Of a stretch of 64,000 nucleotides of DNA, positions 16,210-63,408 are shown in pieces (positions within the stretch are counted from its first letter, which is position 1; each line of letters begins with the position of its first letter). Below the pieces are notes generated by a model. That model was not told the DNA's origin. It was given only the letters and a program-made list of their open reading frames with translations, and ran no database searches. The position numbers and the translations under genes are program-made. The stretch is from the NCBI GenBank assembly GCA_951406725.2, contig OX597825.1, forward strand, positions 56,978,001 through 57,042,000. The letters are read 5' to 3'. The stretch is from Octopus vulgaris (taxonomy: Eukaryota).

Positions 16210-17431
16210 CATTAACATCATTGTTGTCATTTAATGTCCATGGCATGGGCTGGATGGTCTGACTGAGGACTGGCAAGCCAGAAGACTGCACCAGACTCCA
16301 ATCTGATCTGGCAAAGTTTTTACAGCTGGATGCCCTTCCTAATGCCAACTACTTCAAGAGTGTAGTGGGTGCTTTTACGTGCCACCAGTACAATGGCCAG
16401 TCAGATAGTACTGGCAACGATCATGCTCAAAAGATGTCTTTTACATGCCACCTGCATGGGAGCCAGTCCGGCATCACTGGTAACAACCACACTCAAATGT
16501 TGTTTTTCACGCGCCACTGGCACATGTGCCAGTAAGGCGATGCTGGCAACGATCATACTTGAATGGTGCTTTTTACATGCTACCAGCACGGGAGCCACTC
16601 AGCGACCTTGGCAACAGTCACAAGTGCCAATTAGGTGGTACTGTCATCAGCCACATCAGCAATTTTGATTTTGATTTTGATTTTACTTGCCTCAACAGGT
16701 CCTCGCAAGCAAAGTTTATTGTCCAATGAATGAAGGATACTCCTAAGTGGGCTTGTTATACACCACTGGCATAGGCCATGGGTTATGGCCTCACTTGGCT
16801 TGTCAGGTCTTCCCAAGCACAGCATATCTCCAAAGGTCTTGGTCACTAGTCATTGCCTCAGTGTTCGAAGGTTGTGCTTCACTAACTCATCCCAGGTCTT
16901 CCTGGATCTACCATTTCCACAGGTTCCCTCAACTGCTAGGGTGTGACACTTTTTCACACAGCTGTCCTCATCATCCATTCACAACACGTGACCATACCAG
17001 CACAGTCGTCTCTCTTGCACACCACATCTGATGCTTCTTAAGTCCAACTTTTCTCTCAGGGCACTTACAGCGGAGCACATTGGCTTCATTCCTTGCAAGC
17101 TTACACATGTCCTCAGCAGTCACAGCCCATGTTTCACTGCCATGTAGCATGGCTGTTCATACACATACATCATACAGTCTACCTTTTACTCTGAGTGAGA
17201 GGCCCTTTGTCACCAGCAGAGGTAGGAGCTCTCTGAACCTTGCCCAGGTTATTCTTATTCTAGCAGCTACACTTTCAGAGCATCCACCCTCGCTACTGAC
17301 TTGGTCACCTAGGTAATGGAAGCTATCAACTGCTTGTAGTTTTTCTCGCTGGAATGTGACAGAAGCTGTTCTCTGCACATTTTCAATGTTTATTGCTCCT
17401 GAGCAAGTTGCCACATACAAAAACTATCTTC
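16210..17431 (-). mobile_element. Decayed RTE LINE 3' fragment
   Basis: ORF 17157..17420 (VDSFHYLGD...WARFRELLPLLVTKGLSLRVKGRLY) homologous to the 34314 ORF; 3'UTR repeats and tail present. Confidence 0.88.
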
Positions 17432-30239: not shown

Positions 30240-31787
30240 CACACATCCAGAACCATGCTAATAGTTTAGGTGTGAAATTTCAGATTTCTTGGATTTTTGT
30301 GAATCAATTATGATAAAAAATTTTCACAGCTGCTTTGAACACTATGGCAACACTATTGTTATGTTTTCATAATTCTGTGTAACGTCCTTTCTTTTTTATT
30401 TCAGGTTCTTCAGTTTTGGGGTGAACCATGCTAATAGCTTTTGAATGAAAATAGTCCATCTAGACATTTTTCTTTAGAAAGTGAAGGGTAATGATACATA
30501 TTAAGCACGCATTGAGTATATATTCAACAGAAAACCATAATAATATAATAATATTTATTGATGTAACAAATTATTTAGCCACATGAGTGCCAAGGAAGAA
30601 ACGATCCAGTTGTGGGACCTACAAGATTGTGACAGCTAAGGATTTAAGAAATATTGGCCACAAGTTACATGGGAAACCTGGACAAACAAGCAAAACCATT
30701 TTCATCACCTCCAGACTTCCTCATGTACCAAAACCACCAGAAATCACATCCTCGAGACTATGGCTTCCATGTGAGAATCCCTGAAACTGCCTTCTTTAAC
30801 ACCCTGTCACAGGAGCTTGAGGCTTCAATGGGTCCAAAAGTACATGACATAAGACTTGAGTTGTGTTCTATTTACTGACAAAACCAGGGTGACCTTTGAC
30901 AGTTCTGACAGTTGGGCAAATAGTTGGGTTTATTTTGGAGTTGAGCTTCACCAACATTTACAATGTCAACAACAGGGTGGAGGAGTCATGTTGAGGGCTA
31001 GTATCATTGGGGACAGACTTGTTGGCCCAGTCAGGGTGCCTGAAGAGGTTAAAGTGACCACAGCCACCTACTGCAATCTCCAGAAGGAAGTCTTGGATCC
31101 CTGGCTAATGACATACCACTGTCACTTCTAAGGAATCTCATATTCATGCATGACAACACTCCCTCCCACTCTCCTAGGACCACCAAAACATTACTAGGGT
31201 CTTATGGCATACAAGGTGAAAGGTTGATGGTGTGACTGCTAGCATCCCAAGATCTCAACCCTATCGAAAATCTTTGGTCCATCTTTAAACAAGATGTTTA
31301 TGCCGATGGATGTCAATTTATGTCGAAAGATGTCTTATGGGTGACCATCAAAGCTGCAGCAGAGGCAGTCCAATCTGCTACTATTAAGAAATTGACAGAT
31401 TCCATGACTAATATGGTTTTTGAAGTTACCCATTAAAATGGCACTCATGTGGCTAAATAATTCATTATGTCAATAAATGTAATAATATTGTTATCAGTTT
31501 TCTGTTAAATATACACTCAAAGTATTCTTAATATGTATCATTACCCTTCATTTTCTAAAAAAATGTCAAGCTGGGCTATTTTCATTCAAAAGCTTTTACC
31601 TTGGTTCACTTAAAAACAGAAGAATCTGAAATAAAAAAGAAAGGACATTACACAGAATAATGCAAACATAACATTGTTGTTGCCATAGTGTGCAAACCAG
31701 GTGGGAAAAGTTTTACCAAAATCGATTAACAAAAAAATGAGAAATCTTAAATTTCACTCCTAAGCTATTAGCATGGTTCTGGGTGTG
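30240..31787 (+). mobile_element. Decayed Tc1-like transposon with long (about 340 bp) inverted repeats
   Basis: IRs at about 30240-30585 and 31445-31787; transposase remnants VLFTD, FMHDNTPSH and QDLNPIENLW, with stops and frameshifts. Confidence 0.9.
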
Positions 31788-31848
31788 TATGGTGGTGCTC
31801 CAGCACGGCCACAGTCAAATGATTGAAACAAGTAAAAGAATATATATA

Positions 31849-32289
31849 CAGGGGTTGGACAAAATAATTGAAACACCTTAAAACCTCAAGCAAATTTATT
31901 TTAATATGGGGTAGGACTGCCTTTGGCAGTAATTACAGCTTGAATTCTATGAGGTATGGACTTATACAAAGTTTGAATTGTTTCCAAAGAAATGTTTGTC
32001 CATTCTTCAGCTAAAACATTTTGGCTGTTTTCATTATCCTAGCACCTGCCATATGAGCACCAACAATTTGACCTCTTTGAAAGTCTGATAGATCTGACAA
32101 TTTAATGAATTTTAATTACTTTTTTCTGATGATATCTGAAAAGAAACAGCAATTTTAGCATGACACATTAAGCAACACTAATAATAAATCAAAAAACATA
32201 AAAATAAACAAGCTTTTGACAGTTTTATAGATATTTCAAAATTATGATGCTATGATGCTAGGTGTTTACATTATTTTGTCCAACCCCTG
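31849..32289. mobile_element. Tc1-type MITE
   Basis: TIRs CAGGGGTTGGACAAAATAAT.. / ..ATTATTTTGTCCAACCCCTG with TA on both sides. Confidence 0.9.
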
Positions 32290-34394
32290 TATGTATACTC
32301 TTTTACTCTTTTACTTGTTTCAGTCATTCGACTGTGGCCTCGCTGGAAATGCACACCACAATCATCATCATCTTCATTTGAACATACACTTTTTCATGCT
32401 TGCATAGGCTGGGTGGAGTTTATTGAAACAGATTTTCTATGACTGGTGAACTTCCTTTGAGAAAGTGGGAAAAAAAAGAAATAAAGGTGGTAAGCTGGCA
32501 GAAACATTAGCACGTTGGGCGAAATGCTTAGCAGTATTTCGCCTGCCATTACATTCTGAGTTCAAATTCCGCCGGGGTTGACTTTGCCTTCGATGTAATT
32601 GGCTTAATCCCTTTGTCCTTGTTTGTGAGTGTGTGTGCACATATGTATGAGTGTGCATATGCATGTATCTGTGTATAGACATAGGCCTACAAAAATGAAG
32701 AATGACGGTGCATTCTCCATATTTCACAATGAGTTTTCTGGCTCTTTGATCAACTAAACTATTTTCATATAAGAGTATAAGTGGCTGAGTATTCCAGGAA
32801 CATGGATACTTATAACATAATCCTCCTCAGACTCAGATGCAGTATGACAGAGTGTAAAACTATGTAATGGGAAGAGGCAAGATGAATGAAACAAAAATAC
32901 CAGGATGGAGGTGAAACAAGCCAAGCCAGCTCCAAGGAGGATAGGTTATTACTGGAGTGGAAAAGACATAGACAGATAACAGTTAGTATTGGTAGATAGA
33001 CTAGTTAGTATTTGTAGTTATGGTAGATATTATAGTAATATGTATTGAATACTATACAGTAGTCAGTATTATTAGTTATAGTAGTTAGTACTGGTGGTTA
33101 TAGTTATTAGTTTTGATGCCTGTTGTAGTACTGGTGGTCAAAGCCATTAGTAGTGGTGCTATAGTAATTTATACTGATGGTAATAGTAGTTACAATTGGT
33201 TGATGTATTGTAGTTAGTATTAGTGAGAACAGTAGTTAGTATTGCTGGTAATGGCTACAGTAGTTAAAATTATTAGTTATAGTAGTTAGTATTAATGGTT
33301 ATAGTAGACAGTATTAGAGATGGTTATAGTAGTTAGTATTCCTGACTATATCAGTCTTGGTGACAAGAGAAGTTAGGATTGGTGGCTATTGTAGTTAATA
33401 TTGGCAGCTATAGTAGTCAGTAATGGTTACTACAGTAGTTAATATTGGTGGTTATAGTAGTTAGCATTGGTGGTTATACTAGTTAGTACTGCTGGCTATT
33501 ATAGTTAGCATTGGTAGTTACAGCAATTGGTATTGGTAATTACGGTGATTAGTCATTAGATATTATAGTGATTAGTATAGGTGGTTATAGTAATTAATTA
33601 GTATTGGTTATAATAGTTATCATTAGTTGTTAGTTGCAGTAACTATAATGGTTAGTATTAGAGGCTATAGTAGCTAGTATTGCTGGTTATGGTAGTTAGT
33701 ATTGGTTGGTATTATTATAGTTAGTATTGGTTGGTATTATTATAGTTAGTATTATTGGCTATAGTGGTTAGTATCAATGGTTATCGTTGTTAGTATTAGT
33801 GGTTATTGTAGTTAATATAGGTAGTTGCAGTGGTTACAAGTGGTAGTTGCATTAGTATTGACGGTTATAGCAGTTAGTATGTGATGACTATAGTAGCTAC
33901 TGTTAGTAGCTGTAGTAGTTAGTATTGGTAGTTATAATAGTAATTATAGTATCAGTATTAGTGGTTATTTTAGTTAGTATTGGTGACTAAAGAAGTTTAG
34001 TATTAGTGGCTGTAGTAGTAAGTATTGGTGGTTATAATAGTTAATATTGGTCGTTATAGCTGTTATTATCAATAGTGAGTTAGTATTAGTGGTTATGGTT
34101 GTTACTATTACTGTAGTCAGTAATATTGGTGATTAAAGTAGATAGTGTTTGTGGTTATAGAAGTTAGTATTAATAGTAGTTATAGTAATTTATACTCATG
34201 GTTGTATTAGAATGAGTGGTTAATGTAGTTAATATTGGTAGTTGAAGTAGTTAGCATTAATGGTTAGTATTAATGGTTGGAGTAGTCGACTTTGATGTTT
34301 ATAGTAATTTGTTTTGGTGTTTGTAATAGTTACTGTTGGTTGCTGTATCAGTCGGTTAGTATTGTTGGTTATAGTAATTATTATTAATATTCTA

Positions 34395-35959
34395 TGTAAG
34401 CTATGGACATGTAAGCTATGGACACATAAGAGGTGCAGCAATGTCAAAGGAAGGCTAACTAGGAAGATGGTTTTTGTATGTGGCAGATGCTCAGGAACAA
34501 TAAACACTGAAAATGCTCTGAGACCAACTTCCGTCACTTTCCAGGGAGAAAAACTAAAAGTAGTTGATAGTTTCCGTTACCCAGGTGACCAAGTCAGTAG
34601 TGGGGGCGGGTGTGCTGAAAGTATAACTGCTAGAGTAAGAATAGCCTGGGCAAAGTTTAGAGAGCTCTTACCCCTGCTGGTGACAAAAGGCCTCTCGCTC
34701 AAAGTAAAAGGCAGACTGTATGATGCATGTGTACGTACAGCCATGCTACATGGTAGTGAAACTTGGGCTGTGACTGCTGAGGATTTGCGTAAGCTCGCAA
34801 GAAATGAAGCTAGTATGCTCCGATGGATGTGTAACGTCAGTGTTCATAATCGACAGAGTGTAAGTACCTTGAGAGAAAAGTTGAACCTAAGAAGCATCAG
34901 TTGTTGTGTGCAAGAGAGACGTTTGCGCTGGTATGGTCATGTGATGAGAATGGCTGAAGATAGTTGTGTGCGAAAGTGCCACACCCTGACAGTTGAGGGG
35001 ACCTGTGGAAGAGGTAGACCCAGGAAAACCTGGGTCGAGGTGGTGAAGCACGACCTTCGAACTTTAGGTCTCACCAAGGAAATGACCAGTGACCGAGACC
35101 TTTGGAAGTATGCTGTGCGTGAGAAAACCCGGCAAGACCAGTGAGAACAGTCAAAATCAAAATCAAACCAAATATCAGAAAGCAGAACCAAATTGAGGTC
35201 GATCAACATCAGGGCCCCCGTGCAGGTGACACGTAAAAGCACCATCCGTTCGTGGCCGTTTGCCAGCCCTGTCTGGCCCCCGTGTCGGTGGCACGTAAAA
35301 GCACCATCCGTTCGTGTTTGTTGCCAGCCTGGCCTGGCCCCCGTGCCGGTGACACGTAAAAGCACCATCCGTTCGTGGCCGTTTGCCAGCCCTGTCTGGC
35401 CCCCGTGTCGGTGGCATGTAAAAGCACCATCCGTTCGTGTCCGTTGCCAGCCTCGCCTGACCCCCGTGCCGGTGACACGTAAAAGCACCATCCGTTTTGT
35501 GACCGTTTGCCAGCTCTGTCTGGCCCCCGTGTTGGTGGCACGTAAAAGCACCATCCGTTCGTGTCCGTTGCCAGCCTCGCCTGGCCCCCGTGCCGGTGAC
35601 ACGTAAAAGCACCATCCGTTTCGTGACCGTTTGCCAGCTTTGTCTGGCCCCCATGTTGGTGGTACGTAAAAACACCATCCGTTCGTGCCCGTTGCCAGCC
35701 TTGCCTGGCCCCGTGCCGGTGACACGTAAAAGCACCATCCGTTCGTGGCCATTTGCCAGCTCTGTCTGGCACCTGTGTGGGTGGCACGTAAAAAGCACCC
35801 ACTACACTCACGGAGTGGTTGGCGTTAGGAAGAGCATCCAGCCGTAGAAACACTGCCAGATCTGACTGGGCCTGATGAAGCCTTCCAGCATCACAGACCC
35901 CAGTTGAACCATCCAACCCATGCTAGCATGGAGAACGGACGCTAAATGATGATGATGAT
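34395..35959 (+). mobile_element. 5'-truncated young RTE-clade LINE (RT C-terminus, 3'UTR minisatellite, (GAT)n tail)
   Basis: ORF 34314..35144 with RTAMLHGSETW, RRLRWYGHVMRM and GRGRPRKTW motifs; ends GGACGCTAAAT(GAT)n; inserted in a TAGT-rich satellite. Confidence 0.92.
35213..35800 (+). repeat. About 61-bp minisatellite (about 10 units, alternating A/B) in the RTE 3'UTR
   Basis: Repeated gcccccgtgccggtgacacgtaaaagcaccatccgttcgt...ttgccagc; explains the repetitive ORFs 34937..35916. Confidence 0.9.
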
Positions 35960-41814: not shown

Positions 41815-42666
41815 ATATGTGCATACTCAGCAGAATGTAAGTACCTTGTGAGAAAAGTTGGACCTAAGAAGCATCAGATGTAGTGTGCAAGAGAGACGAC
41901 TGCGTTGGTATGGTCATGTGGCAAGAATGGATAAAGATAGCTGTGTGAAAAAGTGCCACACCCTAGCGGTTGAGGGAACCTGTAGAAGAGGTAGACCCAG
42001 GAAGACCTGGGATGAGGTGGTGAAGCATGACCTTAGAACATTAGGCTTCACCAAGGCAATGACTAGTGACCGAGACTTTTGGAAATATGCAGTACATGAG
42101 AAGACCTGGTAAACCAAGTGAGACCATAACCCGTGGCCTATACCAGGGGTGTAAGCAGCCCACTTATGCGTACCTTTCCTTCATTGGACACTAAACTCTG
42201 CTTCCGAAGACCTGTTGAGGTAATCGAAATTGAATCAAATTCAATGACTGGCACCCGTGCCAATGGAGTGCTAAGAGCACCATCTGAGTGTGATCATTGC
42301 CAGAGCAGCTAACTGGCTTCTGTGCCGGTGGCATGTAAAAATGCCAGTGACACGTGAAAAAACATTCGAGTGAGGTCATTGCCAGTGCCGCTGGAGTGGC
42401 TCCTGTGCAGGTGGCACGTAAAAAACACCATTTGATTGTGGTCGTTGCCAGTACTGCCTGACTGGCTCTCGTGCTGGTGGCACGTAAAAGCACCCACTAC
42501 ACTCACGGAGTGGTTGGCGTTAGGAAGGGCATCCAGCTGTAGAAACTCTGCCAAATCATATTGGAGCCTGGTGCAGTCATCTTGTTTGCCAGTCCTCAAT
42601 CAAATTGTCCAACCCATGCTAGCATGAAAAGCGGACGTTAAATGATGATGATGATGATGAAGATGA
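41815..42666 (+). mobile_element. RTE LINE 3' fragment
   Basis: ORF 41858..42112 RRLRWYGHVARM...RGRPRKTW; 3'UTR repeats; (GAT)n tail. Confidence 0.9.
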
Positions 42667-46816: not shown

Positions 46817-49514
46817 TAATAATAACAATAATAATAAATAAATGCCCTGATGCAGTACCAGACAGTAGCTCTCGTGGTTTCTGATCTTAACTGATTGGAA
46901 GTGTTATCATGTACATGTTTTGTCTTGGTATAAAAGATGGGCTACAGCAAATATTCTGCTCAATACCACAGATTTGCTTGTCAGTTGCCTAACCGTAACC
47001 AGTTGAGCATGTCCCTTGGTAGTTGACAATGTGTGCATTTCTGTTCACAAGCAGCAGCAGTGAGGGTAGCATCATAGCCATGTGTTGAGAGGAGTTCTTT
47101 GGGGTTTGAATAGTTCACCTTTGGAAACATGAGTACTTCATTCATCATTTTTAAACGAACCTTATTCATGGACCTTTTGAGCAGGATGGGCTACTCAACC
47201 TGAAGAAAATTTTAATTGGCCCCACCTGCAAGGTCATGCACAATTTATCTTGATATGAGATCACCATGTCACACACATGTGGTTGCGATGCATGTGTCAG
47301 GTGTACCCTTATCAGATGGCTTCATATATTTGTACCCCAGTGTCACTTTGATAGCACGCATTGCTCTCTCACTCAATAATAATAATAATAGGCGAGCTGG
47401 CAGAATCGTTAGCGCACTGGACAAAATGCTTAGCAGTATTCTGCCTGTTACTACATTCTGAGTTCAAATTCCACCGAGATCAACTTTGCCTTTCATCCTT
47501 TCAAGGTTGATAAATTAGGTACCAGTGAAACACTGGGATTGATGAAATTGACTTATCTCCTCTGCCAAAATTGCCCTTGTGGCAAAATTTGAAACCATTA
47601 TTATTATTATCATTATTATTATTATTATTATTAGGCACATCCTAGAGAACAAGGAGGTGCATGAACCTTGAAAACTTAATAAATGATCATGAGCACCATC
47701 TGAGTGTGATCACTGACTGGCTCTCGTACCGGTTGTACGTAAAAAGCACCATTCAAGCATGATCGTTACCAGCATTGCCTCACTGGCACTTGTGCCAGCA
47801 GCATGTGAGAAACAACATTCGAGCGAATTCATTACCAGTGCTGCTGGACTGGCTCCTGTTCAAGTGGCACGTAAAAAACACTATTTGAGCATGGTTGTTG
47901 CCAGTACCGCCTGACTGGCCCTTGTGCCGGTGGCATGCAAAAGCATCCACTACACTCTCATGGCATCCAGCTGTTGAAACATTGCCAAATCAGATTGGAG
48001 CTTGGTGCAGCCATCTGGCTTTCCAGTCCTCAGTCAAACATGAAAAGCGGATGTTAAATGATGATGATGAAATTTGAAGCCCTGAAATTTGAAGGAGGAA
48101 GTTAATTGATTGAAGCAACTCTCGTACTTGAGCAGTACTTTGTTTTATCAGTCCTTGTAAGGATGGAAGGTAAAGCTGACTTCGGTGAGATCTGAACTCA
48201 GATCATAAAGAGCTGGAAGAAATAACAGAAATTTTTCAATGCTCTAAGTATCTGCTAACCCACTGCCCTCAGTTAAAAAAAAAAAGAAAAAAGAGAATAA
48301 TTATAATAATAATTATTTCTGTTATAGGCACAAGGTCTGAAATTTGGAGTATGGGGAGCTAATCAATTACACTTACCCTCCAGTTGTTGACTGGTACTGT
48401 ATTTTATCAACCCCAAAAGAATGAAAGATAAGGTTGACCTTGGCAGGATTTGAACTCAGAACATAATGAGGTAGGAGAAATGTTACTAAACATTATGTCC
48501 GATGTACTAACGATTCTGCCAGCATGCCACCTTTGGCTTTCAGACTTAAACAGGAGGCCAGCAGTTTTGTAGGGGAGGGGTTAGTTGAGACCATTATCAC
48601 CAGTATTTGACTGGTGTTGTTTTATCGACTCCGGAAGAATGAAATCTCAGCAGGATTTGAACACAAGAATATAAAGATCTAGAACAAATATCACAAAATT
48701 TTACTGATAGCCTAACCATCTTACCACACAGCCACACCCGCACCTACATAACTAGTTATACAAGTTTTGTCAAATCATGTCTACAGGCATACAAATTTCC
48801 ATTCCAAGCTAGGAATGGAGTAATTTCATTTGATTTGCATTAGATGTACCCTTGGGAAAGACATGGGGATCATTCAGAACCATATCTCCTTTCCATGTAA
48901 ACCTTGGCAAATTATGCTTAAATGAGAAAAGTTAATAATTTGGCTTGGAAGAAGGCTATAAAGTGACTCCTCTCTCCTGGTATTTATTTTATTAATCTCA
49001 GAATGATGGAATGAAAAGTTGATCATTGAAGAATTTTATCCAAGAACATAAAGGGACATGACTATATTTGGTTAACTGCCCACTCTCTCTCGCTTTCTTT
49101 CACTGACTGTCTCATTATTTTTCTCTCTAACTCTCCTTCCTTACCTCTCTTTTCCTAGTGGGGTAGCCAAGTATCTGCTCTACAGTAGGATACCTATCTC
49201 TATCCCTCAATCATACTCGAACCTTTTATCTAACAATAAAATTTTTACTGACGCTTTAACATTTCTACCAAACCCGTCCTAGATAATTGTGTCTAGCATA
49301 GACACAACTCCAGAAATTTTGGAAGAGAAAGGTGTTAGTGAATATAATCAATCCATTCCTCACCAGTACCTTATTTTATCAACCTCGAAAGGATGAAAGA
49401 CAAAGTTGACCTTGGTTGGTTTTCAATGTAAAGGGCCAGAACGAACACTACAAGGTATCTTGTTTGACATTTTAATGATTCTGCTAAATCACCACCCTAT
49501 CAGTTGAGTCTCTG

Positions 49515-50391
49515 TAACGTTTAGAAAGCTTCTACCCCTACTGGTGACAAAGGGCCTCTCGCTCAGAGTGAAAGGAAGATTGTACTATGCATGTGTGCGA
49601 ACTGCCATGCTTCACAGTAGTGAAACATGGGCTGTGACTGCAGAGGACATGCGTAGGCTTGAAAGAAATGAAGCTAGCATGATCTGCTGGATGTGTAATG
49701 TCAGTGTGCACACACGACAGTATAAGCACCCTGAGAGAAATGTTGGACATAAGAAGCATAGGATGTGGCATGCAAGAGAGACGCTTGCGCTGGTATGGTC
49801 ATGTACCACAGATGGATGAGGAGAGATGTGTGAAGAAGTGCCACTCCCAAAAAGTTGAAGGAATCCGGAGTAAAGGTAGACCTAGGAAGACATGGGATGA
49901 GGTAGTCAAGCATGACCTTCGAACATTGGGCCTCACAGAGGCAATGACAAAAGACTGCTAAGGCCCAGCAAATAAAGTGAGTTCACAGCTGTATTCCATA
50001 CCAGTTTCGCATAACCAGCCCCAGCCCATTAAAAAGTACCTTGGATCGTAGGGCGACCTGCTGTGCTCGAAGAGACCTATTGAGTCAAATACATCAACAT
50101 CAAAATGAAAATCAAATGGAAATTGTAGTTGTGATACTCGTGCCGGTGGCACGTAACAAGCACCCACTACACTCATGGCCGTTGCCAACCCCCTCTGCAC
50201 CCTGTGCCAGTGGCACGTAAAAAGCACCCACTACACTCATGGAGTGGTTGGCGTTAGGAAGGCCATCCAGTTGTAGAAACACTGCCAGATCAGACGGGAG
50301 CCAGGTGCAGCCTCCTGACTTCCCAGACCCTGGTCGAACCGTCCAACCCATGCTCGCATATAAAAAAAGGACGTTAAACGATGATGATGAT
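49515..50391 (+). mobile_element. RTE LINE 3' fragment (frameshifted)
   Basis: ORFs 49544..49819 and 49698..49961 cover the same RT C-terminus; (GAT)n tail. Confidence 0.9.
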
Positions 50392-52657: not shown

Positions 52658-52766
52658 TGCTTACTGCACCTAGGTTTCCCAAGCGGTCACCCATCTAAGT
52701 ACTGACTAGGCTCGACGTTGCTTAACTTCGGTGATCAGACGAGAACTGGTGCTTTCAACGTGATAT
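52658..52766 (-). pseudogene. 5S rRNA: 5S rRNA retrocopy lacking about 10 nt at the 5' end
   Basis: Minus strand ATATCACGTTGAAAGCACCAGTTCTCGTCTGATCACCGAAGTTAAGCAACGTCGAGCCTAGTCAGTACTTAGATGGGTGACCGCTTGGGAAACCTAGGTGCAGTAAGCA; box A and box C regions recognisable. Confidence 0.93.
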
Positions 52767-55054
52767 ATCCTAAATGAGATTAAAAGTACCTGAAGGTATT
52801 CCGTGTATGTATGCATCTGTGTGTGCATGTGCAATTAAAGCTGAAGTAGTTTCTCGTCCTGAAATGGATGCCTTCTCTTTGCAACACATTTTTTGTTTTT
52901 TGTTATTTTCTTCTAGGTGAGAAGGATGTTGTTGCTGCTTTTGGTTTTGGTTTTTTTAACACCAGGTCAGCTCTGCTCAAGATCAGATATTCCACTTATG
53001 ACCATCTGACATTTACCCCAGGTACAGTAAACCCTATGACCACATTAACCAAAGTGTCCTTCTTTTCTAAAACAGCAGAGTGTGATTTCATGGAGATTTG
53101 GCTGCTATTTCTAATAAGCTGGTCTCAAACATATTTCACCAAAGTGTGTATATGTTGTGTGCATGTTACTGTGTTGCTGTTTGCACGTGTGTGCATGCAT
53201 GCATTTGGTGTTGTGAAGCTACTCCAGTTTTGTCCTTAGTTCAAACCTTCTTTGGAGGAAGTAAGCGGCCAGAGAGCAGTGGTCTATCTGAAACAAGGCG
53301 AGTTGAGAGTCTTGTTCAAAGGATTCAATTCAGAGATTGTAGTAAGACCTGGAAACTTCATCACAGCTACATTGGTCTATAGTTTAGCAGAGGAAGAGGG
53401 AAGCACCTCTGGCCTTTTACAAAGACTCAGAAATTGACAGAAGATAATTAGGAACTACATGTGAGCTGGCTTAAGACCAAAGGCCAGGTTAAATTCTTGC
53501 AACACAGTTGACTCTGCTAAAGACATTCAAAGACCAGGTGATAGCACTGGTCTATTTACCCAAGGACCAGGTGATAATAGCATTAGTCTTCCACTGAAGG
53601 ACCAGGAAAAAAGTCAAGATTTGCCCAAGGTGCCACATGATGGGATCAAACCTGGAACCACTTAACTGGGATTATACATATCTTTTATCTTTTACTTGTT
53701 TCAGTCAATTGACAGCAGCCATGCTGGGGCACCGCCTTGAAGAATTTTAGTCAAACAAATCAACCCCATCGCTTTTTTTAAGCCCAGCACATTCTATCAG
53801 CCTTCATTTACTGAATTGCTGAGTTACATAGACATGAACACACCAACACTGGTTGTCAAGTGGTGGTGGGGTACAAACACAGACACACACACACAACAGG
53901 CTTCTTTCAGTTTACATCTACCATGTCCAATCACACAGCTTCGGTCAGCCCGAGGTTATAGTAGAAGACACTTCACTTGCCCAAAGTGCCACATAATGGG
54001 ACTGAACCCGGAACTATAAGGTTGGGAAGCAAGCTTCTTACCACACAGCCACACCTATATGATTAATGAGAGAACATGCTTTACTGGCAAACTACCAGGT
54101 GTATACCATACACCCGGTTTGTTTGGATGATGTGGCTGTAATCGTTTTCGGTTAGGCATAATCTATAACAGCATATCTAAACCTTATCATTCCGGGTCCC
54201 CTGTTTTGATTGGAGCCTCCCCACTTGTTAGAAAACAGCTTCAGGAGTTGTGATGAACAAATTTGTATGCAGTCTGTTTCTGAGAGCTATTCTACTGGAC
54301 CTCTGAGTAATCATTAAAACATTGATTTAATTATGAACATACGAAGAAATTATACATTAATCCCTATTTTTGTAAGCAGTTGTATCCGTAAAAATTTTTT
54401 TTTACAGAGAGCAGAAATTGAAAGAAGATATATGAAGAGAGAGAGAGAGAGTGTGTGTGTGTCTGCGCGGGCGTGCATGCATGCTCGCACGTGTGTATGT
54501 GTTTACGATTATTGATTTATGGAAAAGATTATGTTAAATTTTTGAAATGCAAATATGTGAACGAAAATTAAGTTCAGACCTCTACATGGGAGCTAGACCT
54601 GGTAGAAATACCAGCCAGATCTCCCTCAAAACACCCTACTGTCTTAATCCGACAATTCTGCCTATTATGTAGTTTGAATAAGAAACTGTCACTAAAGATT
54701 AAGATTATTAACCCCACAAAGAGATGAAAGAAGAGAGACAGCATAGCGAAAGTTTTGGCTGACTGTCATACTGTACTCCCCTTGTTGCTAGCGAAATGGT
54801 ATATGCTGGCTGTGTGAGCAACTGGTTGTTTTAATGGTGGAAAAAACAGGGGAATTTCATTAGAAAACGTTTTAAAATGGATTTTCTTGTTAACTATGGG
54901 TGCTAGGAAAAAAATACAAACCGCATTCCAATCTATGCACTCGTCTCCATATGCGTGCCATTTTTCACGCGAATCCACACAGCCATTTGGCTGTGAACCT
55001 CAAGACAAGAAAGAATACAACAATAGCCCATGTCCAATTTATATTATAAATATA

Positions 55055-55331: not shown

Positions 55332-55402
55332 CCTGAAAGACAGAGGAATAATTTCTCCAGGATCTTCTTGTGGACTTTCATCATTTACAGACATTTCTGT
55401 TT
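55332..55402 (-). CDS. Coding exon: (E)TEMSVNDESPQEDPGEIIPLSFR
   Basis: Acceptor ttgttttatttacag|AA and donor AGG|gtaagg; non-repetitive; ends in phase 0, matching the next exon. Confidence 0.7.
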
Positions 55403-58041
55403 CTGTAAATAAAACAAATGACATCAACAACAAATTACAAACAAGATTCAACTAGTAATTTGTAAGGAACGGCAAATCTCAAAAGTAAATAAAGCAATAA
55501 ATAATATCATGTAAATATAGAACTGAAACAATCCTGAGAGTCAGAGGCTGGAATTAAATTACATATATCATAATTTTTTTTGTTTTTCTTTTTTTGCAGG
55601 GGATGGGTTGTTGTTTTTACTTGTTTCAGTCATTAGACTGTGGCCATGCTGGGGCACCACCTTGAAGAATTTTCAGTTGAATGACTCAAACCCAGTACTT
55701 ATATTTTTTAAGCCTGGTACTTACTTTGTTAGTCTCTTTCGTAGAACTACTAAGTTACAGGGGTGTAAACGCACTAACACCAGTTGTCAAACGGTGGGAC
55801 AACCATACACACACACACATCATCATCGTTTAACGTCTGCCTTCCATGGGTTGGACGATTTTGACTGAGGGCTGGTGAGCCAGATGGCTGCACCAAGCTC
55901 TAATCTTGATCTGGCAGAGTTTCTACAGCTGGATGCCCTTCCTAACGCCAACCACATATATATATTTATATATATACGACAGGCTTCTTTCAGTTTCCAT
56001 TTACCAAATCCACTCACAAGGCTTTGGTTGGCCTGAGGCTACAGAAGATACTTGTCCAAGGTACCATGCAATGGAACTGAATCCAGAACCATGTGGTTGG
56101 AAAGCAAGCTTCTTATTACTCACACACACACACATAGTGCAAAAGTGTATACATATGCATACACTCACACATCATCACCACCACCATTTTTACATCCAAT
56201 TTTCCTTGCTGACAAGAGTTGGGGGCACATCGTAGCTTAGCTCAGTGCATATTTGAAGTTACTGTCCACCAAGATACATCAGAGCCCATGTCTTGCTCAC
56301 AAATTCTATTTTGGGGCTTGCTGACCTTCCTGTCCTTAATCATTGCCTCTCTCTTATCATGGACCCAGCACTAGAGAGGGTCACTAAGAAATCCTCTCTA
56401 CTCATTTCCTATTTGTCAGTTTGCCATCATCAGACCATTCTTTCATCTGCAGTTAGCCTAAAAGAGACCTCCCTTGTGGAGGTAAGGGATAATATACAGC
56501 TGGCATAATTGACATCCAGTATATTACTGGTACATATTGGTACATATTTTATCAATGCCGGGAGAATAAACAGCAAAGTAAATTTCCATAAGTACTGTCC
56601 ATTAACCTATTATCATAAGTGAAATTGCAATACTGTTAAACATCTAATTAACACTCTACTAATTACTAATTAACAATTAAGCTGTGTATTTTCCAACATT
56701 TTCTAAATTAGAATGTTTGTGTGCTGTTAGATGTGTTATGGTGATGTCATTGTTTAACCACAGGTCAGTCATCAATGAGCAAACCTATGATCAAAAGGCA
56801 TTCCAGCTATGACCATCCCATTTTTTTCTAACGCTAAGACTACATAGTCCAATGTGGCTTTCCTTTTTTAAATGGTATTGTGTGATTTGAGAGAGATTTG
56901 GCTGCTATTTCTAGCAAGTTGAGCAATGCTGATGTTGTTGCTTAGTCCAATGTCAACCTTGATTGAGGAGACATAATCAAAGGCAACACATTTATGGCCA
57001 CCCTGTCTTTTATTTTGTTAAACAGGTAAGATGACAAAGGACTGAGAGAACTGGCATCTGGCTGTACTTGAGAAGACACGTACCCCACAGCTAAAGTTTT
57101 AAGACCAATCCTTCTGGTGATGTAAAGCACTGATGGCAGTTCCACATAAAAGCACTTGTGCGGTACCTCATGAAAGCACCTGTGCAGTGCTATGTAAAAG
57201 TGCCCATACAGTGTCATGTAAAAGCACCTGGCACATTCTAAAAAGTGGTTGTTGGTAGGAAGGACATCCAGCTGTAGGAACCATGCCAAATCAAACTAGA
57301 ATCTGGTACAGACCCACCAGCTTGCCAGCTCTGGTCACTGTCCAACCCATGCCAGCATGGACAATGGATGTTAAATGATGATGATGTTGATGTGCTTAGG
57401 TCTACATTATCATGTGCCTTTTCAATTTTTTAAGACAGTATGGTTTTGGCTGCTATTTCTAGCAATCGTATACAGACCATTTGTTTGATCACATGTCAGT
57501 TTTCTGATGCAAGTTAAGTTCATACTCCCAACACTTCATACTTTCATGACACCATCCTATAAACATAACAAAAATCTCTTTCATGAGACAAATGCCATTT
57601 ATATATTGTTACAGTCATGGCTTTAGGCACAAGCAAGACTATAGGTGCAGGGATGGCTGTGTGGTAAAGAAGAGTGCTTCACAACCACATGTTCTGGATT
57701 CTCTTCCATTGTGTGGCACATTGCACAAGTGTCTACTTAAGCCCCCAGGCCAACCAAAGCCTTCAGAGTGGATGTGGAGACAGAAACTGAAAGAAGGTCA
57801 TCGTTTATATATCATCATCATCGTTTAACATCCGCCTTCCATGCTAGCATAGGTGGGACAGTTCACAAGAGCCAGCCAAGCAGAAGCCTGCACCAGGCTT
57901 CTGTGACTGTTTTGACAGGATTTTTACAACTGGGTGCCCTCCCTGACAGCAACCACTCAGCAGAGTGGACTTAATGCTTTTTACATGGCATATCATCATC
58001 ATCATCGTTTAACATCCGCTTTCCATGCTAGCGTGGGTTGG

Positions 58042-58070
<29 letters not shown>

Positions 58071-58078
<8 letters not shown>

Positions 58079-58923
58079 TTAGCAATTAAGGACAACTACT
58101 TAATAAGGAAAACTTAACAAGAAATTGTCAGGTAGATAGCGTGAAAGACCTCATAAGAGAAAAAATTTCGAAAATAATTATTTCTTATTGAACATATTAA
58201 TTTATATATAGAGGGCATTATACATACATGCCAGAGGGCATTATACATACATGCCACACGCTAAGAGGGACAATTAGTCATTTCTACCAAAAATTTTACT
58301 AATCCCACCGAATGCAATTTTTCAAAGTAAGACATTAAAAAAAATATAGACCTGTATCACAGTGATTTCATACTTACGTATTCATCAGCAGGCCTGGACG
58401 TATCATAAATAAACGACCCTGCCTCGCTTAAGCCGATCAGCTAACTGATCAACATCAACGAAACACATGGGTGAGTTTACATATATTACATCCGGTAAAT
58501 GGCAGACTTTTACGAATTGCATTTCGGGAAAGGAAAAGTTTTTTCGGAATAAAAATTTAGCAATTAAGGACAACTACTTAATAAGGAAAACTTAACAAGA
58601 AATTGTCAGGTAGATAGCGTGAAAGACCTCATAAGAGAAAAAATTTCGAAAATAATTATTTCTTATTGAACATATTAATTTATATATAGAGGGCATTATA
58701 CATACATGCCAGAGGGCATTATACATACATGCCACACGCTAAGAGGGACAATTAGTCATTTCTACCAAAAATTTTACTAATTTTACTAATTTTACTTTGA
58801 AAAATTGCATTCGGTGGGATTAGTAAAATTTTTGGTAGAAATGACTAATTGTCCCTCTTAGCGTGTGGCATGTATGTATAATGCCCTCTGGCATGTATGT
58901 ATAATGCCCTCTATATATAAATT
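58071..58923 (-). mobile_element. Non-autonomous Penelope-like/retrozyme element: 478-bp unit, partial tandem copy and inverted copy
   Basis: 58071-58303 repeated identically at 58549-58781; 58792-58923 is the reverse complement of 58199-58330; contains a hammerhead; (TA)n on both sides. Confidence 0.75.
58348..58395 (-). ncRNA. Minimal type I hammerhead ribozyme (intact core)
   Basis: AGGCCUG-CUGAUGA-AUAC-GUAA-GUAU-GAAA-UCACUGUGA-UA-CAGGUCU: 7-bp stem I, 4-bp stem II with GNRA loop, quasi-palindromic stem III, AUA cleavage triplet. Confidence 0.88.
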
Positions 58924-59879
58924 TATATATATATATATATATATATTACAGTAAAGACCCCCTCTGGTCATGAATGTTCATGGGGACTGCATCTAGAAAG
59001 TTACCCTCCGAGGCACAAGTCCATGCAAGGTTTTTTATGGAAGACCAGTAGTCACCCATGCATATCAGCCTTTTCTCTGCATGCCACTAATGTTATCCAA
59101 GAGAAAGGCAAAGGCCAATACAGCTTGCTTCCAGTGACATCACAACTCATTTCTATAGCTGAGTGAACTAGAGTAATGTGAAAGGAAGTGTCTTGCTCAA
59201 GAACACAGCACAGTCCAGGAATCAAACTCACTGCCTCATGATTGTGAGCCCAATGCTCTAACCACTAAACCAGGTGCCTATAAATATATATATTTGCTGT
59301 GCTTGAGACGACACATCAAGCTAAGTAAAGCAAAATTGTGGCTGTCTATACATACAAGCATGTCTTTTGCATCCTATCCCTCTCTCAACCAAGAGATTCT
59401 AGTCTTGTGGGCTCGTGGGTACTGTCACCAACATAAAAGCATAGGTGCATGTGCCATGTATAAGCACCTGTGCCAGTGTCACATAAAAGTGCCCATACCA
59501 CATAAAAGCACCCAGTACACTCTTTATAATGGTTAGGAACAGTATCCAGCCATGGAAAACATGCCAAAATAGACAAATGGAGCCAGGGCAGCTCTCCAGC
59601 TGACCAACTCCTGTCAAACTGTCCAACCCATACCATTATGGAGAAGAGATATTAAAAGATGAGATGACAATATATATATATAAATAAACAATAATAAATC
59701 TCTGAGTGAGGTATAAACAGTAGCTGCAAGACATCGTGAAGTATATTAACCCTTAAGGGTTAGCCACATTTAAGTGGCAAATATACTTCATGATATATAT
59801 AAATATATATGAATAAATAAATATATACATATGTGTGTGTATGTATATATATATATATAAAGATTAAAGTAGTGAGGAA

Positions 59880-60091
59880 AGGCAAACAATTAGTCATGGC
59901 AGGACTAGGGTATTTGATTTCATTTAATTCAATCTAAAAATTTAGCTATATGACAAATGGTAAAAATGGTACAAAACTAGTAAAGATAGTATCTTTTTGT
60001 ACCATTTCTACCATTTGTCACGTAGCTAAATATTGAGATTGAATTAAATGAAATCAAATGCCCTAGTCTGGCTTTTACTAATTGTTTGCCT
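59880..60091. repeat. About 210-bp near-palindrome
   Basis: aggcaaacaattagt...ggtacaaaa / ttttgtacc...actaattgtttgcct with a short spacer. Confidence 0.85.
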
Positions 60092-60526
60092 GACTGACTC
60101 AAAGGGAAGCTACCATTAGCCATTTTTTGAACAAGACATTCATACAACCACAACTTCAACCACTGTTCTGACTGGAATTTTGATGGCACCTATTTGAGCA
60201 CTCAAAATGCATACCTATTATTTTGAGACACCTTAACCTAAACTCCTCTTATCTTCTCTGTGTGTGTGTGTGTGTGTGCGTGTGTAGTTCAGATTTACTG
60301 AAAACAAAATATGAAAACAGGTGAAAAAACAAGCAGATCCATTAGTTTTACACTAATATCATCATCATCGTTTGACGTCTGTTTTCCATGCTGGCATGTG
60401 TTGGATGGTTTGCCTGGCGCAGCCTACTAGTTTGCCAGTCCCCAATCTGATCTGGCAAGATTTCTACAGCTGGATGCCCTTCCTAATGCCAACCACTCCA
60501 AGAGTGTAGTGGGTGCTTTTTACATG

Positions 60527-60571
<45 letters not shown>

Positions 60572-63338
60572 TATATATAAATATATATATTTATATCTAT
60601 TTATATTTATTTATTTTTATTTTGGCATTAGGAAGGGCATCCAGCAGTAGAAACTCTGCCAAATCAAGATTGGAGCCTGGTGCAGCCATCTGGTTTGCCG
60701 GCCCTCAGTCAAAATCGTCCAACCCATGGTAGCATGGAAAGCAGACATTAAACGATGATGATGATGATGATCCACAAGTTTTTTTTTATTTTCTCTCTGT
60801 TTACTTTTTCTTATTCTTTTCTGCTGAAGAACATAAGCTCAAAACATAAAAGATTTTTTCACTTTTCTGAGCATCAAATACACCTGCTTGTTGTTCATAC
60901 ACCTGTCTTCATCTTTTGTTTTTCTATAAATTTCAACTATGTACATAGATATATATTTATGTAAGTGTGCCTGTGTTACTGTCTCCTTGCCTTGCCTTTA
61001 CATGACTATTGCAAACAAATCACCATTATGCAAGCAGTGTCCTTTGTTTCCAATCTTCCATGGAGACATGTCAAGTCATGTAGAAATATTAGCTTACTCG
61101 GAAACAAGGACATCTGGCCGTAAAAAAAATCCACCTCAACAAATTCAATCTGACCCATTGAACCATGGAAAAGTGGATGGCAAACAATGATGATGATGAT
61201 GAAATTTTATTAATTCTGTTTTCTTTTACATGTTTCTGTCAATCGATTGTGGCCATGCTGGGGCACTTATTCTATCAGTCTCTTTTGCTAAACTGCTAGG
61301 CTGCAGCAACAACACCAGTTGCCAAGCTGTGACAAGACAAAGACACACACAGATTCACACACATACACACATTCACATAGAAACACGTACAGCAGGCTTC
61401 TACACAGTTTCCATCACTTACAATTCACTCATATGGCATTGGTCAGCCCAAGGCTATAGCAAAAGACACTTGTTGAAGGAGGCAAAGAGTGGGAGAGAAA
61501 CTGGAACTACATGGTTCAGAAGTGAACATCTAAACCACACAGTCACGCCTGCACCCTATATTGTTTGTTCTGCTGTTTCAGATCATTATTAGTTTTCTAG
61601 AATTCTAAGGATTTTCTTTCCGTTACATATTTTTAGTTCAGGCTTACAAATAAATTTTCTGACAACTCCAAAAGTTGGAAAAGGAACAGACTAACACCAG
61701 AGACCACACATCTTGAAATATAATAATACCTTCCTTCAATGTAGAGACAATATTAAATAACTATCATAATTTTTTCTAGAAATTGTGTGTAATTATTACA
61801 CTGAGCAACACAATTTTTGTCCTTGGGCAGGAACTGTTATTTCCTATTTGCTTATCCCCAACAAAGTATGAAAAATGGCTAATATTTCCTTCAAACTTTG
61901 CTTTTGTTACATTCATTCAAACCCCAAAGAATCCCTAACACATGGCTATGATGCTCTCCCACTACTCCTACACATGATCAGAGATGCACAGTTTGTCAGT
62001 TGCTAAGATATATGCTCAAGATATTGTCAGCCACTAAAAGACATGCTCAAGTGGTTAAGGTCAAGCAACTGACAAGCAAATCTGTGGTATTGAGCAGAAT
62101 ATTTGCTATACTGATAGTTCTGCTTCAGCAACTCAGTGCTGAATCAGTCTAAAATGTAATGGAAAATAGGACAGTTTCAAAACATTGATGTCCAGGTCAC
62201 AAAAGCAAAATTTGAAGAGAATAGTAGTGATTTGCTTTGCTTTCTAGATAGAAGCAAATAGGAAATAACACTTACTGACCAAAGACAAAAAAAAATGAAA
62301 AATTTTGTTAGTCTAGCTGAGAACAGGGGAAGACAACTGTACTATTTTAGTTATCAAACTTGACTTTTTGGTTCATGTGACCTTTGATGCATATCAAAAT
62401 GTACATAAATTTTAAATCAAACACATCAATGTCACGGATCTAGGAATGGAGAAAAGCTGTACTCTTAGAGTTCTAGCCACTGCCTACCTATACCCCATTT
62501 GATGTAACAATTAGAGAAATAAATAACAACTATATTCAATGTCCAACATATTCACATTCTGTCATGAAGAATGAAGAAATATTCTACCCAATATAATGAG
62601 AGCAAAATACTTAATGGTTAAATGCAAAAAAATATTTCCCTCTATATATCAGTATTTGAATATATTGAAGGTAGCAGGCTGGTAGAATCGTTAGCATGCC
62701 AGGTAAAATGCTTAGCAATATTTCATCCTTCCTTACATTCTGAGTTTTAATTCTGACATGGTCAACTTTGCCTTTCATCCTTTTGGAGTTGACGAAATGA
62801 GTACCAGTTGAGCACTGGGGTCAATGTAATCGACTTAACCCCCACCCCGAACATGCTGGCCTTGTGCCAAAATTTGAAACCAATATTTGAATATATTTTG
62901 TACCATTAACACCAACAGCCATCAATACTAACTACTACAGCCACAAACATTAACTGCTAAACCCACAATACTAACTACTATAACCACCAACACTAACTAC
63001 AATATAGCCACCAATACTAATTACTATAAGCATCAATACTTATTAGCATAACCACTAATACTTATTATTATAGCTGAAAATACTAACAACCAACAATCCT
63101 CTTCATCAGTGTGCATGTTCTAACAAGGTCTTGGAGTTGTTTACAGTTTATCTATTTTTTTATCTATTTTAACATTTCAAAATACTTATTTCAAATCAGA
63201 ATTCATTGAAGTGAAATAACTGAATAAATTGTGTTTTCTCCAACTTTAAATATGAAGTGGTGGTTTTTATTACCTTCCCTTATACTTCAACACTGAAACA
63301 AGAATTCTCAAATTAAATTTAGATGTAACTATAATTAC

Positions 63339-63408
63339 CATTATTTGACGTTGATTCTGAACAAATCTTTTTCTTCGGTTTTTGCTTCTTTAAAAGTTTC
63401 CAGTGTTT
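63339..63408 (-). CDS. Coding exon (first visible, internal) of an unidentified multi-exon gene: KHWKLLKKQKPKKKICSESTSNN+G
   Basis: Acceptor tttcctttctatag|AAA and donor G|gtaatt; 70 nt, open, ends in phase 1, matching the phase-1 start of exon 55402-55332. Confidence 0.6.

What the first reader, a model, noticed from the sequence alone, without database searches (positions are those of the whole stretch)
58071..58923. Young hammerhead-carrying retrozyme/Penelope-like element, sense-oriented in a host intron
Seen: a non-coding 478-bp unit (58071-58548), an identical partial tandem copy (58549-58781), a short stutter (ttttactaa) and a perfect inverted copy (58792-58923), all inside a (TA)n tract. 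The unit holds a complete minimal type I hammerhead (58395->58348: AGGCCUG CUGAUGA AUAC GUAA GUAU GAAA UCACUGUGA UA^CAGGUCU). Established: partial-tandem pLTRs, inverted ends and minimal hammerheads with palindromic stem III mark Penelope-like elements and animal non-LTR retrozymes, which can yield small circular RNAs. Inference: this is a recently active cephalopod retrozyme family. Being on the same strand as the host pre-mRNA, it could cleave the intron co-transcriptionally.
Basis: partly seen in the sequence, partly recalled or inferred. Interest (0 to 1): 0.85.

Follow-up and report, generated by a model that had tools for sequence, protein, structure and literature searches.

The report
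Octopus hammerhead retrozyme in exosome intron
A copy of a repeated 478-base, non-coding octopus element that carries a hammerhead ribozyme motif sits in an intron of the RNA-exosome gene EXOSC10; it is likely a Penelope-mobilised retrozyme of a kind known from mussels and amphibians, and its predicted self-cleavage would likely have little effect on the host gene.

Summary
Observation confirmed: a 478-bp unit, a 233/233 identical partial copy, a 9-bp stutter and a 132/132 inverted copy lie in a (TA)n tract. The unit holds one type I hammerhead motif on the minus strand, inside a 7.9-kb intron of octopus EXOSC10 (Rrp6), sense to the pre-mRNA. Public runs show a many-copy family whose head-to-tail junction recurs in 4 of 4 runs laid, including a second organism, so 478 bp is the true monomer. 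Family variants spare the minus-strand RNA fold (0 of 14 break a pair in the ribozyme arm, 5.5 expected; plus-strand control null), which points to selection on an RNA intermediate. Best reading: a non-autonomous Penelope-type (non-LTR retrozyme) insertion made by reverse transcription from both target strands. Corrections: the hammerhead is not of the published 'minimal' type; the locus has only one ribozyme; about 1% is predicted in the active fold; this locus's inversion junction was not seen independently; intronic copies are ordinary elsewhere. Cleavage, circles and the mobilising partner are untested. New member of a known kind; no cephalopod report found in three literature searches.

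The parts
58047..58073 (.). Left (TA)n target tract; its last bases overlap the element's 3' end
   Evidence: TRF, AT x13.5; junction printed
58071..58548 (-). Full 478-bp monomer (RNA sense = minus strand), GC 33.7%, strongly self-pairing
   Evidence: Period 478; junction 58548->58071 in 4 of 4 runs; fold z = -6.41; GC
58348..58395 (-). Type I hammerhead motif: helix I 7 bp, CUGAUGA core, helix II 4 bp with GUAA loop, GAAA, palindromic helix III, predicted cut after AUA between 58355 and 58354
   Evidence: Descriptor scan with null; folds; activity untested
58396..58548 (-). Upstream rod-like arm of the monomer RNA; predicted to pair with itself and with 58290-58337
   Evidence: Fold; variants spare its pairs
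58210..58256 (.). Internal 23-bp tandem duplication in the monomer (also at 58688-58734 and 58866-58912)
   Evidence: TRF; one repeat is absent from one X8 contig (table 4)
58549..58781 (-). 5'-truncated upstream copy (pseudo-LTR-like), no hammerhead; stops 51 nt short of the cut-site equivalent
   Evidence: 233/233 identity
58770..58796 (.). Junction stutter: 9-bp unit x3, overlapping the start of the inverted copy by a short microhomology
   Evidence: TRF; junction printed
58792..58923 (+). Inverted 132-bp copy of 58199-58330, no hammerhead; its outer end falls at the monomer's most TA-like 12-mer, its inner end 24 nt short of the cut-site equivalent
58924..58946 (.). Right (TA)n target tract
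55403..63338 (-). Host intron (7,936 nt, GT-AG, phase 1) of EXOSC10/Rrp6
   Evidence: Exon mapping of P0001; donor and acceptor printed
63339..63408 (-). EXOSC10 exon upstream of the insertion (aa 676-698 of P0001)
   Evidence: Exact peptide match
55332..55402 (-). EXOSC10 exon downstream of the insertion (aa 699-722)
   Evidence: tblastn and exact match

Best explanation
This is one copy of a many-copy, non-coding 478-base octopus repeat with a type I hammerhead motif, lying in an EXOSC10 intron, and it is likely a non-autonomous Penelope-type retroelement (non-LTR retrozyme) that a Penelope protein likely inserted recently. Shown: fixed monomer, head-to-tail junctions in other copies, strand-specific sparing of the predicted minus-strand fold, intronic sense position. 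Inferred cycle: tandem copies are transcribed; the hammerhead cuts the RNA to 478-nt monomers, which may be circularised; a Penelope RT/GIY-YIG protein nicks both strands of a (TA)n tract. One strand primes at the family's usual 3' end and copies about 1.5 units (58071-58781). The other primes at an internal UA-rich site (58199 equivalent) and copies 132 nt. The two cDNA ends are joined through a short microhomology with a slippage stutter. In the host pre-mRNA the lone ribozyme probably cuts slowly or partly, and splicing likely tolerates it.
For: Junction 58548->58071 in 4 of 4 runs laid (12 contigs in X1, 5 in X3 from another organism, 2 in X8, 1 in X11); 4,699 and 1,459 contigs laid in the two large runs; share running on into unlike sequence 0 in X1 and X3. 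Minus-strand fold z = -6.41, 0 of 100 shuffles as stable. Of the 22 substitutions at >=5% in X1 or X3, 11 keep a predicted pair, 2 break one and 9 are unpaired (7.5 breaks expected, P=0.002); in 58290-58548, 0 of 14 break (5.5 expected, P=0.0002); the same test on the plus strand is null (P=0.60 and 0.72). Among the hammerhead's 48 nt only 1 variant is listed, and it keeps a G-U pair. Partial tandem + inverted 5'-truncated copy + microsatellite bias are the described PLE signature (PMC8557442, passages and section 15). A purified PLE protein cuts AT-rich DNA and extends both strands (PMC11167929). O. vulgaris has 31 recently active PLE families (PMC13282606 Table 1). A second inversion joint of the family (58446/58548) is seen in X1.
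Against: No autonomous partner was linked: no PLE protein homology and no genome to search. This locus's inversion junction was not listed. Cleavage and circles are untested; the two 'RNA' runs are guesses, with low depth (5-60), and may hold DNA or intronic RNA. The active monomer fold is 2.8 kcal/mol uphill (about 1%), and in a full-length dimer the double hammerhead is predicted at only 4e-5, although isolated cores co-fold into it. Depletion of variants inside the ribozyme alone is not significant (1/48 vs 21/430, P=0.71). The plus strand also folds better than shuffles (z = -4.54). The pair test uses one member's predicted structure and non-independent variants. In the anole PLE, reverse transcription starts at a site without homology to the target (PMC11167929), so the UA-rich match at the second end may be chance. 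Only 1 of 9 Xenopus retrozyme dimers cleaved in vitro (bioRxiv 2026.07.22.740005).
Confidence: 0.75

Rival explanations
1. The locus is the 5'-truncated end (pseudo-LTR) of an autonomous Penelope-like element, and 478 bp is just its terminal repeat.
For: Truncated PLE copies with one hammerhead are the common state in genomes (PMC4209133); the anatomy is the same as for autonomous PLEs (PMC8557442). X8 has loose ends of 196-255 nt that leave the unit (table 7).
Against: The end-to-start junction at exactly 478 recurs in 4 of 4 runs and two organisms; share running on into unlike sequence is 0 in X1 and X3; no RT or GIY-YIG remnant was found in the frames tested.
Confidence: 0.12
2. A real family copy inserted as a monomer, and the partial tandem, stutter and inversion came later or in silico (repair-type templated duplication, or misassembly).
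For: 0 differences in 365 duplicated bases is also what an artefact or a recent DNA-level duplication gives; the locus junction was not seen; templated insertions with microhomology are typical of end-joining repair (recalled).
Against: The tandem junction is identical to the family-wide one; the inverted copy includes 27 nt (58304-58330) absent from the adjacent partial copy; the whole pattern matches the published PLE insertion type; another family inversion exists in X1.
Confidence: 0.08
3. The intronic ribozyme matters to the host: it cuts EXOSC10 pre-mRNA during transcription and lowers or reshapes Rrp6 output.
For: Sense orientation in a 7.9-kb intron; intact core; helices I and II predicted at 0.89-0.99 in the locus context; GNRA loop with U1.7, the geometry linked to fast cleavage (PMC11875169 passages); fast ribozymes can abort splicing (PMC2995048 passages).
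Against: One ribozyme only; about 1% active fold; U1.7 is Watson-Crick paired and 10.1-11.1 is A-U; hammerhead-cut introns were spliced efficiently in vivo (PMC2995048); 42-44% of Xenopus retrozyme copies are intronic, so intronic position is ordinary; the insertion looks too recent to show conservation.
Confidence: 0.08

Closest known systems
Animal non-LTR retrozymes (mussel, coral, axolotl; Cervera & de la Pena 2020, PMC7229834; Li et al. bioRxiv 2026.07.22.740005)
   Same: Non-coding, low-GC, few-hundred-bp monomer with a type I hammerhead, head-to-tail junctions, highly self-paired predicted RNA.
   Different: 478 nt is above the 170-400 nt of the 2020 study (within the 51-972 bp of the 2026 preprint); helix III is a longer palindrome (4 bp + 3-nt loop); this locus has 1.5 units and one ribozyme, plus a PLE-type inversion; circles are not shown; host is a cephalopod.
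EN+ Penelope-like elements and their non-autonomous derivatives (Craig et al. 2021, PMC8557442; Frangieh et al. 2024, PMC11167929)
   Same: Partial tandem with a 5'-truncated upstream copy, inverted 5' copy, insertion into (TA)n, hammerhead inside the repeat.
   Different: No ORF; no autonomous partner identified; the inverted copy starts 128 nt inside the unit rather than at a 30-40-bp tail offset.
Minimal PLE hammerheads (Cervera & de la Pena 2014, PMC4209133)
   Same: Type I, conserved core, palindromic helix III region.
   Different: No extra base between positions 9 and 10.1, A-U instead of G10.1-C11.1, helix I longer and helix II shorter than described.
Intronic ribozymes of amniotes and CPEB3 (PMC6765202, passages)
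   Same: Self-cleaving motif in an intron of a host gene.
   Different: Those are described as conserved host features; this is a recent transposon copy with no evidence of conservation at the locus.

Membership tests
Non-LTR retrozyme | Type I hammerhead motif in the repeat unit | tested here: met
   Descriptor hit with helices 7/4/4; 0 strong hits in 30 simulated windows
Non-LTR retrozyme | Short monomer occurring head to tail in many genomic copies | tested here: met
   478-bp junction in 4 of 4 runs; 4,699 and 1,459 contigs laid
Non-LTR retrozyme | Non-coding, GC under 45-50% | tested here: met
   GC 33.7%; no protein family for 10 frames; phmmer hits spurious
Non-LTR retrozyme | Highly self-paired RNA | tested here: met
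   Predicted only: z = -6.41; strand-specific sparing of pairs by variants
Non-LTR retrozyme | Two consecutive ribozyme-bearing units ('active' locus as defined in the 2026 preprint) | tested here: not met
   This locus has one hammerhead, so it is an offspring-type copy. For other loci the junction contigs reach at most 72 nt on the short side, too short to tell
Non-LTR retrozyme | Self-cleavage and circular monomer RNA in vivo | not testable with these tools
   Only contigs were available; they cannot show strand, ends or circles
Penelope-like element (insertion type) | Partial tandem (pseudo-LTR) with inverted 5'-truncated copy | tested here: met
   compared with PMC8557442
Penelope-like element (insertion type) | Insertion into AT-rich or microsatellite target | tested here: met
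   (TA)n on both sides; a target duplication cannot be discerned
Autonomous Penelope-like element | ORF with telomerase-like RT and GIY-YIG endonuclease | tested here: not met
   No ORF in the unit
Non-autonomous PLE derivative | Sequence similarity to the pseudo-LTR of an autonomous PLE of the same genome | not testable with these tools
   No genome or octopus repeat library held; the repeat paper's supplement gave tables, and no hit for ribozyme, hammerhead or retrozyme
Minimal PLE hammerhead (min-HHR) | Extra base between 9 and 10.1 and G10.1-C11.1 pair | tested here: not met
   Sequence reads core, then A10.1 directly, paired with U11.1 vs PMC4209133
Minimal PLE hammerhead (min-HHR) | Palindromic helix III / loop 3 region | tested here: met
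   11-nt strand self-duplex, -10.1 kcal/mol

The most novel reading that the evidence does not exclude
A cephalopod retrozyme has planted a working ribozyme in the pre-mRNA of Rrp6, the nuclear exosome nuclease that would clear such RNAs, and cuts it (alone or paired in trans with abundant family RNA), so the parasite dents its own surveillance. The same locus would also preserve a snapshot of two-ended Penelope reverse transcription with telomerase-like repeat addition at the junction.
Probability: 0.07. Interest if true: 0.8.

Novelty: new member of a known kind. Interest (0 to 1): 0.38.

Why it matters
It extends animal retrozymes to cephalopods, where the searched literature mentions none, and gives a family in which variants spare the RNA fold on one strand only, evidence that selection acts on the RNA stage. 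The insertion anatomy ties a retrozyme-sized monomer to Penelope-type integration, which fits the 2026 proposal that animal retrozymes are non-autonomous PLEs, so far argued mainly from vertebrates. A recent, possibly polymorphic sense insertion in EXOSC10 is a handy natural test of whether such ribozymes affect host splicing. None of this overturns a current view.

Tried and rejected
Own-genome search: no genome held. Rfam: no hammerhead match at gathering threshold or at E<=10; the miRNA hits at 58727-58873 are far below their cut-offs and reflect the inverted repeat. Exact hammerhead pattern in metagenome and viral contigs: 0 and 0. Other copies in the window: none beyond this locus. PLE protein remnants: Pfam blank for 10 frames; phmmer of 1 frame gave 2 tandem-repeat proteins, rejected. 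Strict dimer dependence, my first expectation from the palindrome: isolated cores co-fold as a double hammerhead (-31.1 vs 2 x -12.1), but in a full-length dimer it is disfavoured, so it is left open. Ribozyme-specific conservation: not significant (P=0.71). Expression: no RNA holder on record; X8 and X11 are only guessed RNA, so they are not used as proof of transcription. Summed depth is not a copy number. Promoter scan (bacterial model) was uninformative. Earlier scan notes: none. PMC10886601 proved irrelevant.

Full report
Observation. The sequence is as described. A 233-bp stretch (58071-58303) recurs without mismatch 478 bp later (58549-58781). A 9-bp unit is present three times at 58770-58796. 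Positions 58792-58923 are the exact reverse complement of 58199-58330. AT tracts flank both ends. The minus strand 58395-58348 reads as a type I hammerhead: helix I of 7 bp, intact core, helix II of 4 bp with a GUAA loop, GAAA, a palindromic helix III, and an AUA cut triplet. My descriptor (core words recalled) gave 3 hits in the window; only this one has helices of 7/4/4, and 30 simulated windows gave no such hit. Rfam does not detect it. Neither the partial nor the inverted copy contains the ribozyme, so the locus has one.

Host gene. A minus-strand exon at 44993-45248 matches at 99% a protein named exosome component 10-like of Octopus vulgaris (Pfam PMC2NT, 3'-5' exonuclease and HRDC). Five exons map in order on the minus strand. 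The element lies in the GT-AG intron 63338-55403, whose phase joins codon 699 correctly. The ribozyme is therefore sense to EXOSC10/Rrp6 pre-mRNA, about 3 kb before the 3' splice site.

Family. No genome was held, so I used public runs. Twenty of 24 listed runs hold the unit or part of it; they carry 3 organism labels and come from 7 studies. I laid 4 of the 20 on the monomer. X1 gave 4,699 contigs (1,232 at 99% or more, 2,043 at 95-99%, 1,266 at 90-95%, 158 below 90%). X3, another organism, gave 1,459. The joint 58548->58071 ('goes back 478') appears in all 4 runs. In X1 and X3 the share of records running on into unlike sequence is 0. So 478 bp is a family-wide monomer and not a chance truncation. 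Summed depths of 1e5-1e6, against 37 for a single inversion-joint contig, suggest hundreds to thousands of copies; this is inference, as the tool gives no copy number. X8 and X11 are only guessed to be RNA and show low depth; one X11 contig of 421 nt crosses the junction. This does not prove transcription or circles. The inversion junction of this locus was not listed; another family inversion (58446/58548) was. X1 may be the source sample.

Age. The window copy differs from the common allele at 10 sites. Three fall in the duplicated part and two in the inverted part, and all copies share them, so the pieces come from one template. Zero differences in 365 duplicated bases bound their divergence at 0.8% (95%). 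That fits a recent insertion, and also a later duplication or an artefact. The family itself is of mixed age.

Selection on the RNA. The minus-strand monomer folds at -134.5 kcal/mol, z = -6.41; the plus strand gives z = -4.54. I took the 22 substitutions at 5% or more in X1 or X3; variants seen only in the two small runs, and one second allele at 58505, were left out. On the minus-strand fold 11 keep a pair, mostly by G-U/Watson-Crick exchange, 2 break one and 9 are unpaired. Placing the same changes at random gives 7.5 breaks (P=0.002). In 58290-58548, 0 of 14 break against 5.5 expected (P=0.0002). Mean energy cost is -0.15 against 0.97 kcal/mol (P=0.0004). The plus-strand control is null (P=0.60, 0.72, 0.39). 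G-U tolerance on one strand only points to an RNA-stage constraint. Caveats: one member's predicted structure, one-sided changes rather than two-sided covariation, and non-independent variants. Depletion inside the 48-nt ribozyme alone is not significant.

Ribozyme type and likely activity. The motif does not match the minimal PLE hammerhead of PMC4209133 (parts 1-2 of the text read; one supplement file searched, one not): no extra base before 10.1, A-U instead of G-C, longer helix I, shorter helix II. It has a GNRA loop and U1.7, which PMC11875169 (passages) links to fast cleavage when U1.7 is unpaired; here U1.7 is paired at the helix end. Helices I and II are predicted at 0.89-0.99 in the full unit and in the locus, but helix III at about 0.03; in one shorter window (58300-58450) helix I also failed to form. 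The active fold is about 1% of the ensemble for the single copy. Isolated cores co-fold into a double hammerhead, but a full-length dimer disfavours it (4e-5). Dimer dependence is therefore open; these models ignore tertiary contacts and Mg2+. Published rates vary: the mussel retrozyme cleaves at about 0.1 per minute (PMC7229834, section 14 and passages; supplement not readable); 1 of 9 Xenopus dimers cleaved (bioRxiv 2026.07.22.740005, parts 1-3 of 5); the anole PLE ribozyme needs protein (PMC11167929, parts 1-2 of 4).

Mechanism. Partial tandems, an adjacent inverted 5'-truncated copy and microsatellite bias are the described signature of Penelope-like elements (PMC8557442, passages and section 15). 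A purified PLE protein nicks AT-rich DNA and extends both strands. The locus reads as two cDNAs facing each other (inference). The first runs from the left TA tract through 1.5 units. The second runs from the right TA tract, starting at the unit's most TA-like 12-mer, for 132 nt. They meet at a short microhomology with a 9-bp stutter. Their inner ends lie 51 and 24 nt short of the cut-site equivalent, which fits a template whose 5' end was made by the ribozyme, but this is one event. In the anole PLE, priming needs no homology, so the TA-like match may be chance. O. vulgaris has 31 recently active PLE families that could supply the protein (PMC13282606, part 1 of 3 plus term searches of text and supplement; no mention of ribozymes). 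I could not link the unit to one.

Host effect. Probably small. There is one ribozyme, mostly predicted misfolded. Introns cut by hammerheads were spliced efficiently in vivo, and only faster ribozymes aborted splicing (PMC2995048, passages). About 42-44% of Xenopus retrozyme copies are intronic, with a significant depletion after normalising. Intronic ribozymes are known in amniotes (PMC6765202, passages). The inversion also creates a predicted hairpin of over 100 bp (-187 kcal/mol), which could matter as much as the ribozyme.

Novelty. Three searches (hammerhead + Penelope + octopus; octopus + hammerhead ribozyme; cephalopod + ribozyme + circular RNA) listed no paper whose title or abstract describes a cephalopod retrozyme. 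Term searches in PMC7229834 and PMC7761336 found no 'octopus' or 'cephalopod'. Supplements I could not see (PMC7229834, the 2026 preprint, one file of PMC4209133) and repeat databases may list it. It works like an animal non-LTR retrozyme moved by Penelope machinery and meets the tested family features, except that this locus is a single-ribozyme copy. Verdict: new member of a known kind, interest 0.38.

Noticed in passing
window 58672-58928: The inverted copy makes a predicted perfect hairpin of over 100 bp in EXOSC10 pre-mRNA (-187 kcal/mol for 58661-58930), a likely A-to-I editing substrate in an animal known for heavy editing (recalled).
   Followed up: partly
window 52658-52775 (-): 5S rRNA match (83 bits) inside the next EXOSC10 intron, sense to the gene; may be a dispersed 5S copy or a 5S-derived SINE head.
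   Followed up: no
window 13581-13686 (-): Full-length U6 snRNA match (112 bits).
   Followed up: no
window 58396-58394 (-): [quoted passage not shown]
   Followed up: partly
run X8, loose ends at 58113, 58495 and 58527: Contigs leave the unit for 66-255 nt of other sequence, one ending in junction-like letters; may be related subfamilies or a longer parent element.
   Followed up: no
run X1, joint 58446/58548: Another inversion in the family, starting at the monomer's 5' boundary, at depth 37.
   Followed up: no
window 34308-35144 (+), also 16974-17423, 41852-42109, 49508-49958: Related LINE-like ORF fragments (RTE-type by recall; Pfam gave no family for the longest).
   Followed up: partly
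window 30853-32038 (+): Broken Tc1/mariner-like transposase fragments (DDE_3, E=0.01, below cut-off).
   Followed up: partly
window 12963-13365, 35213-35799, 47713-47942: Related 61-66-bp tandem arrays of a common dispersed repeat.
   Followed up: no
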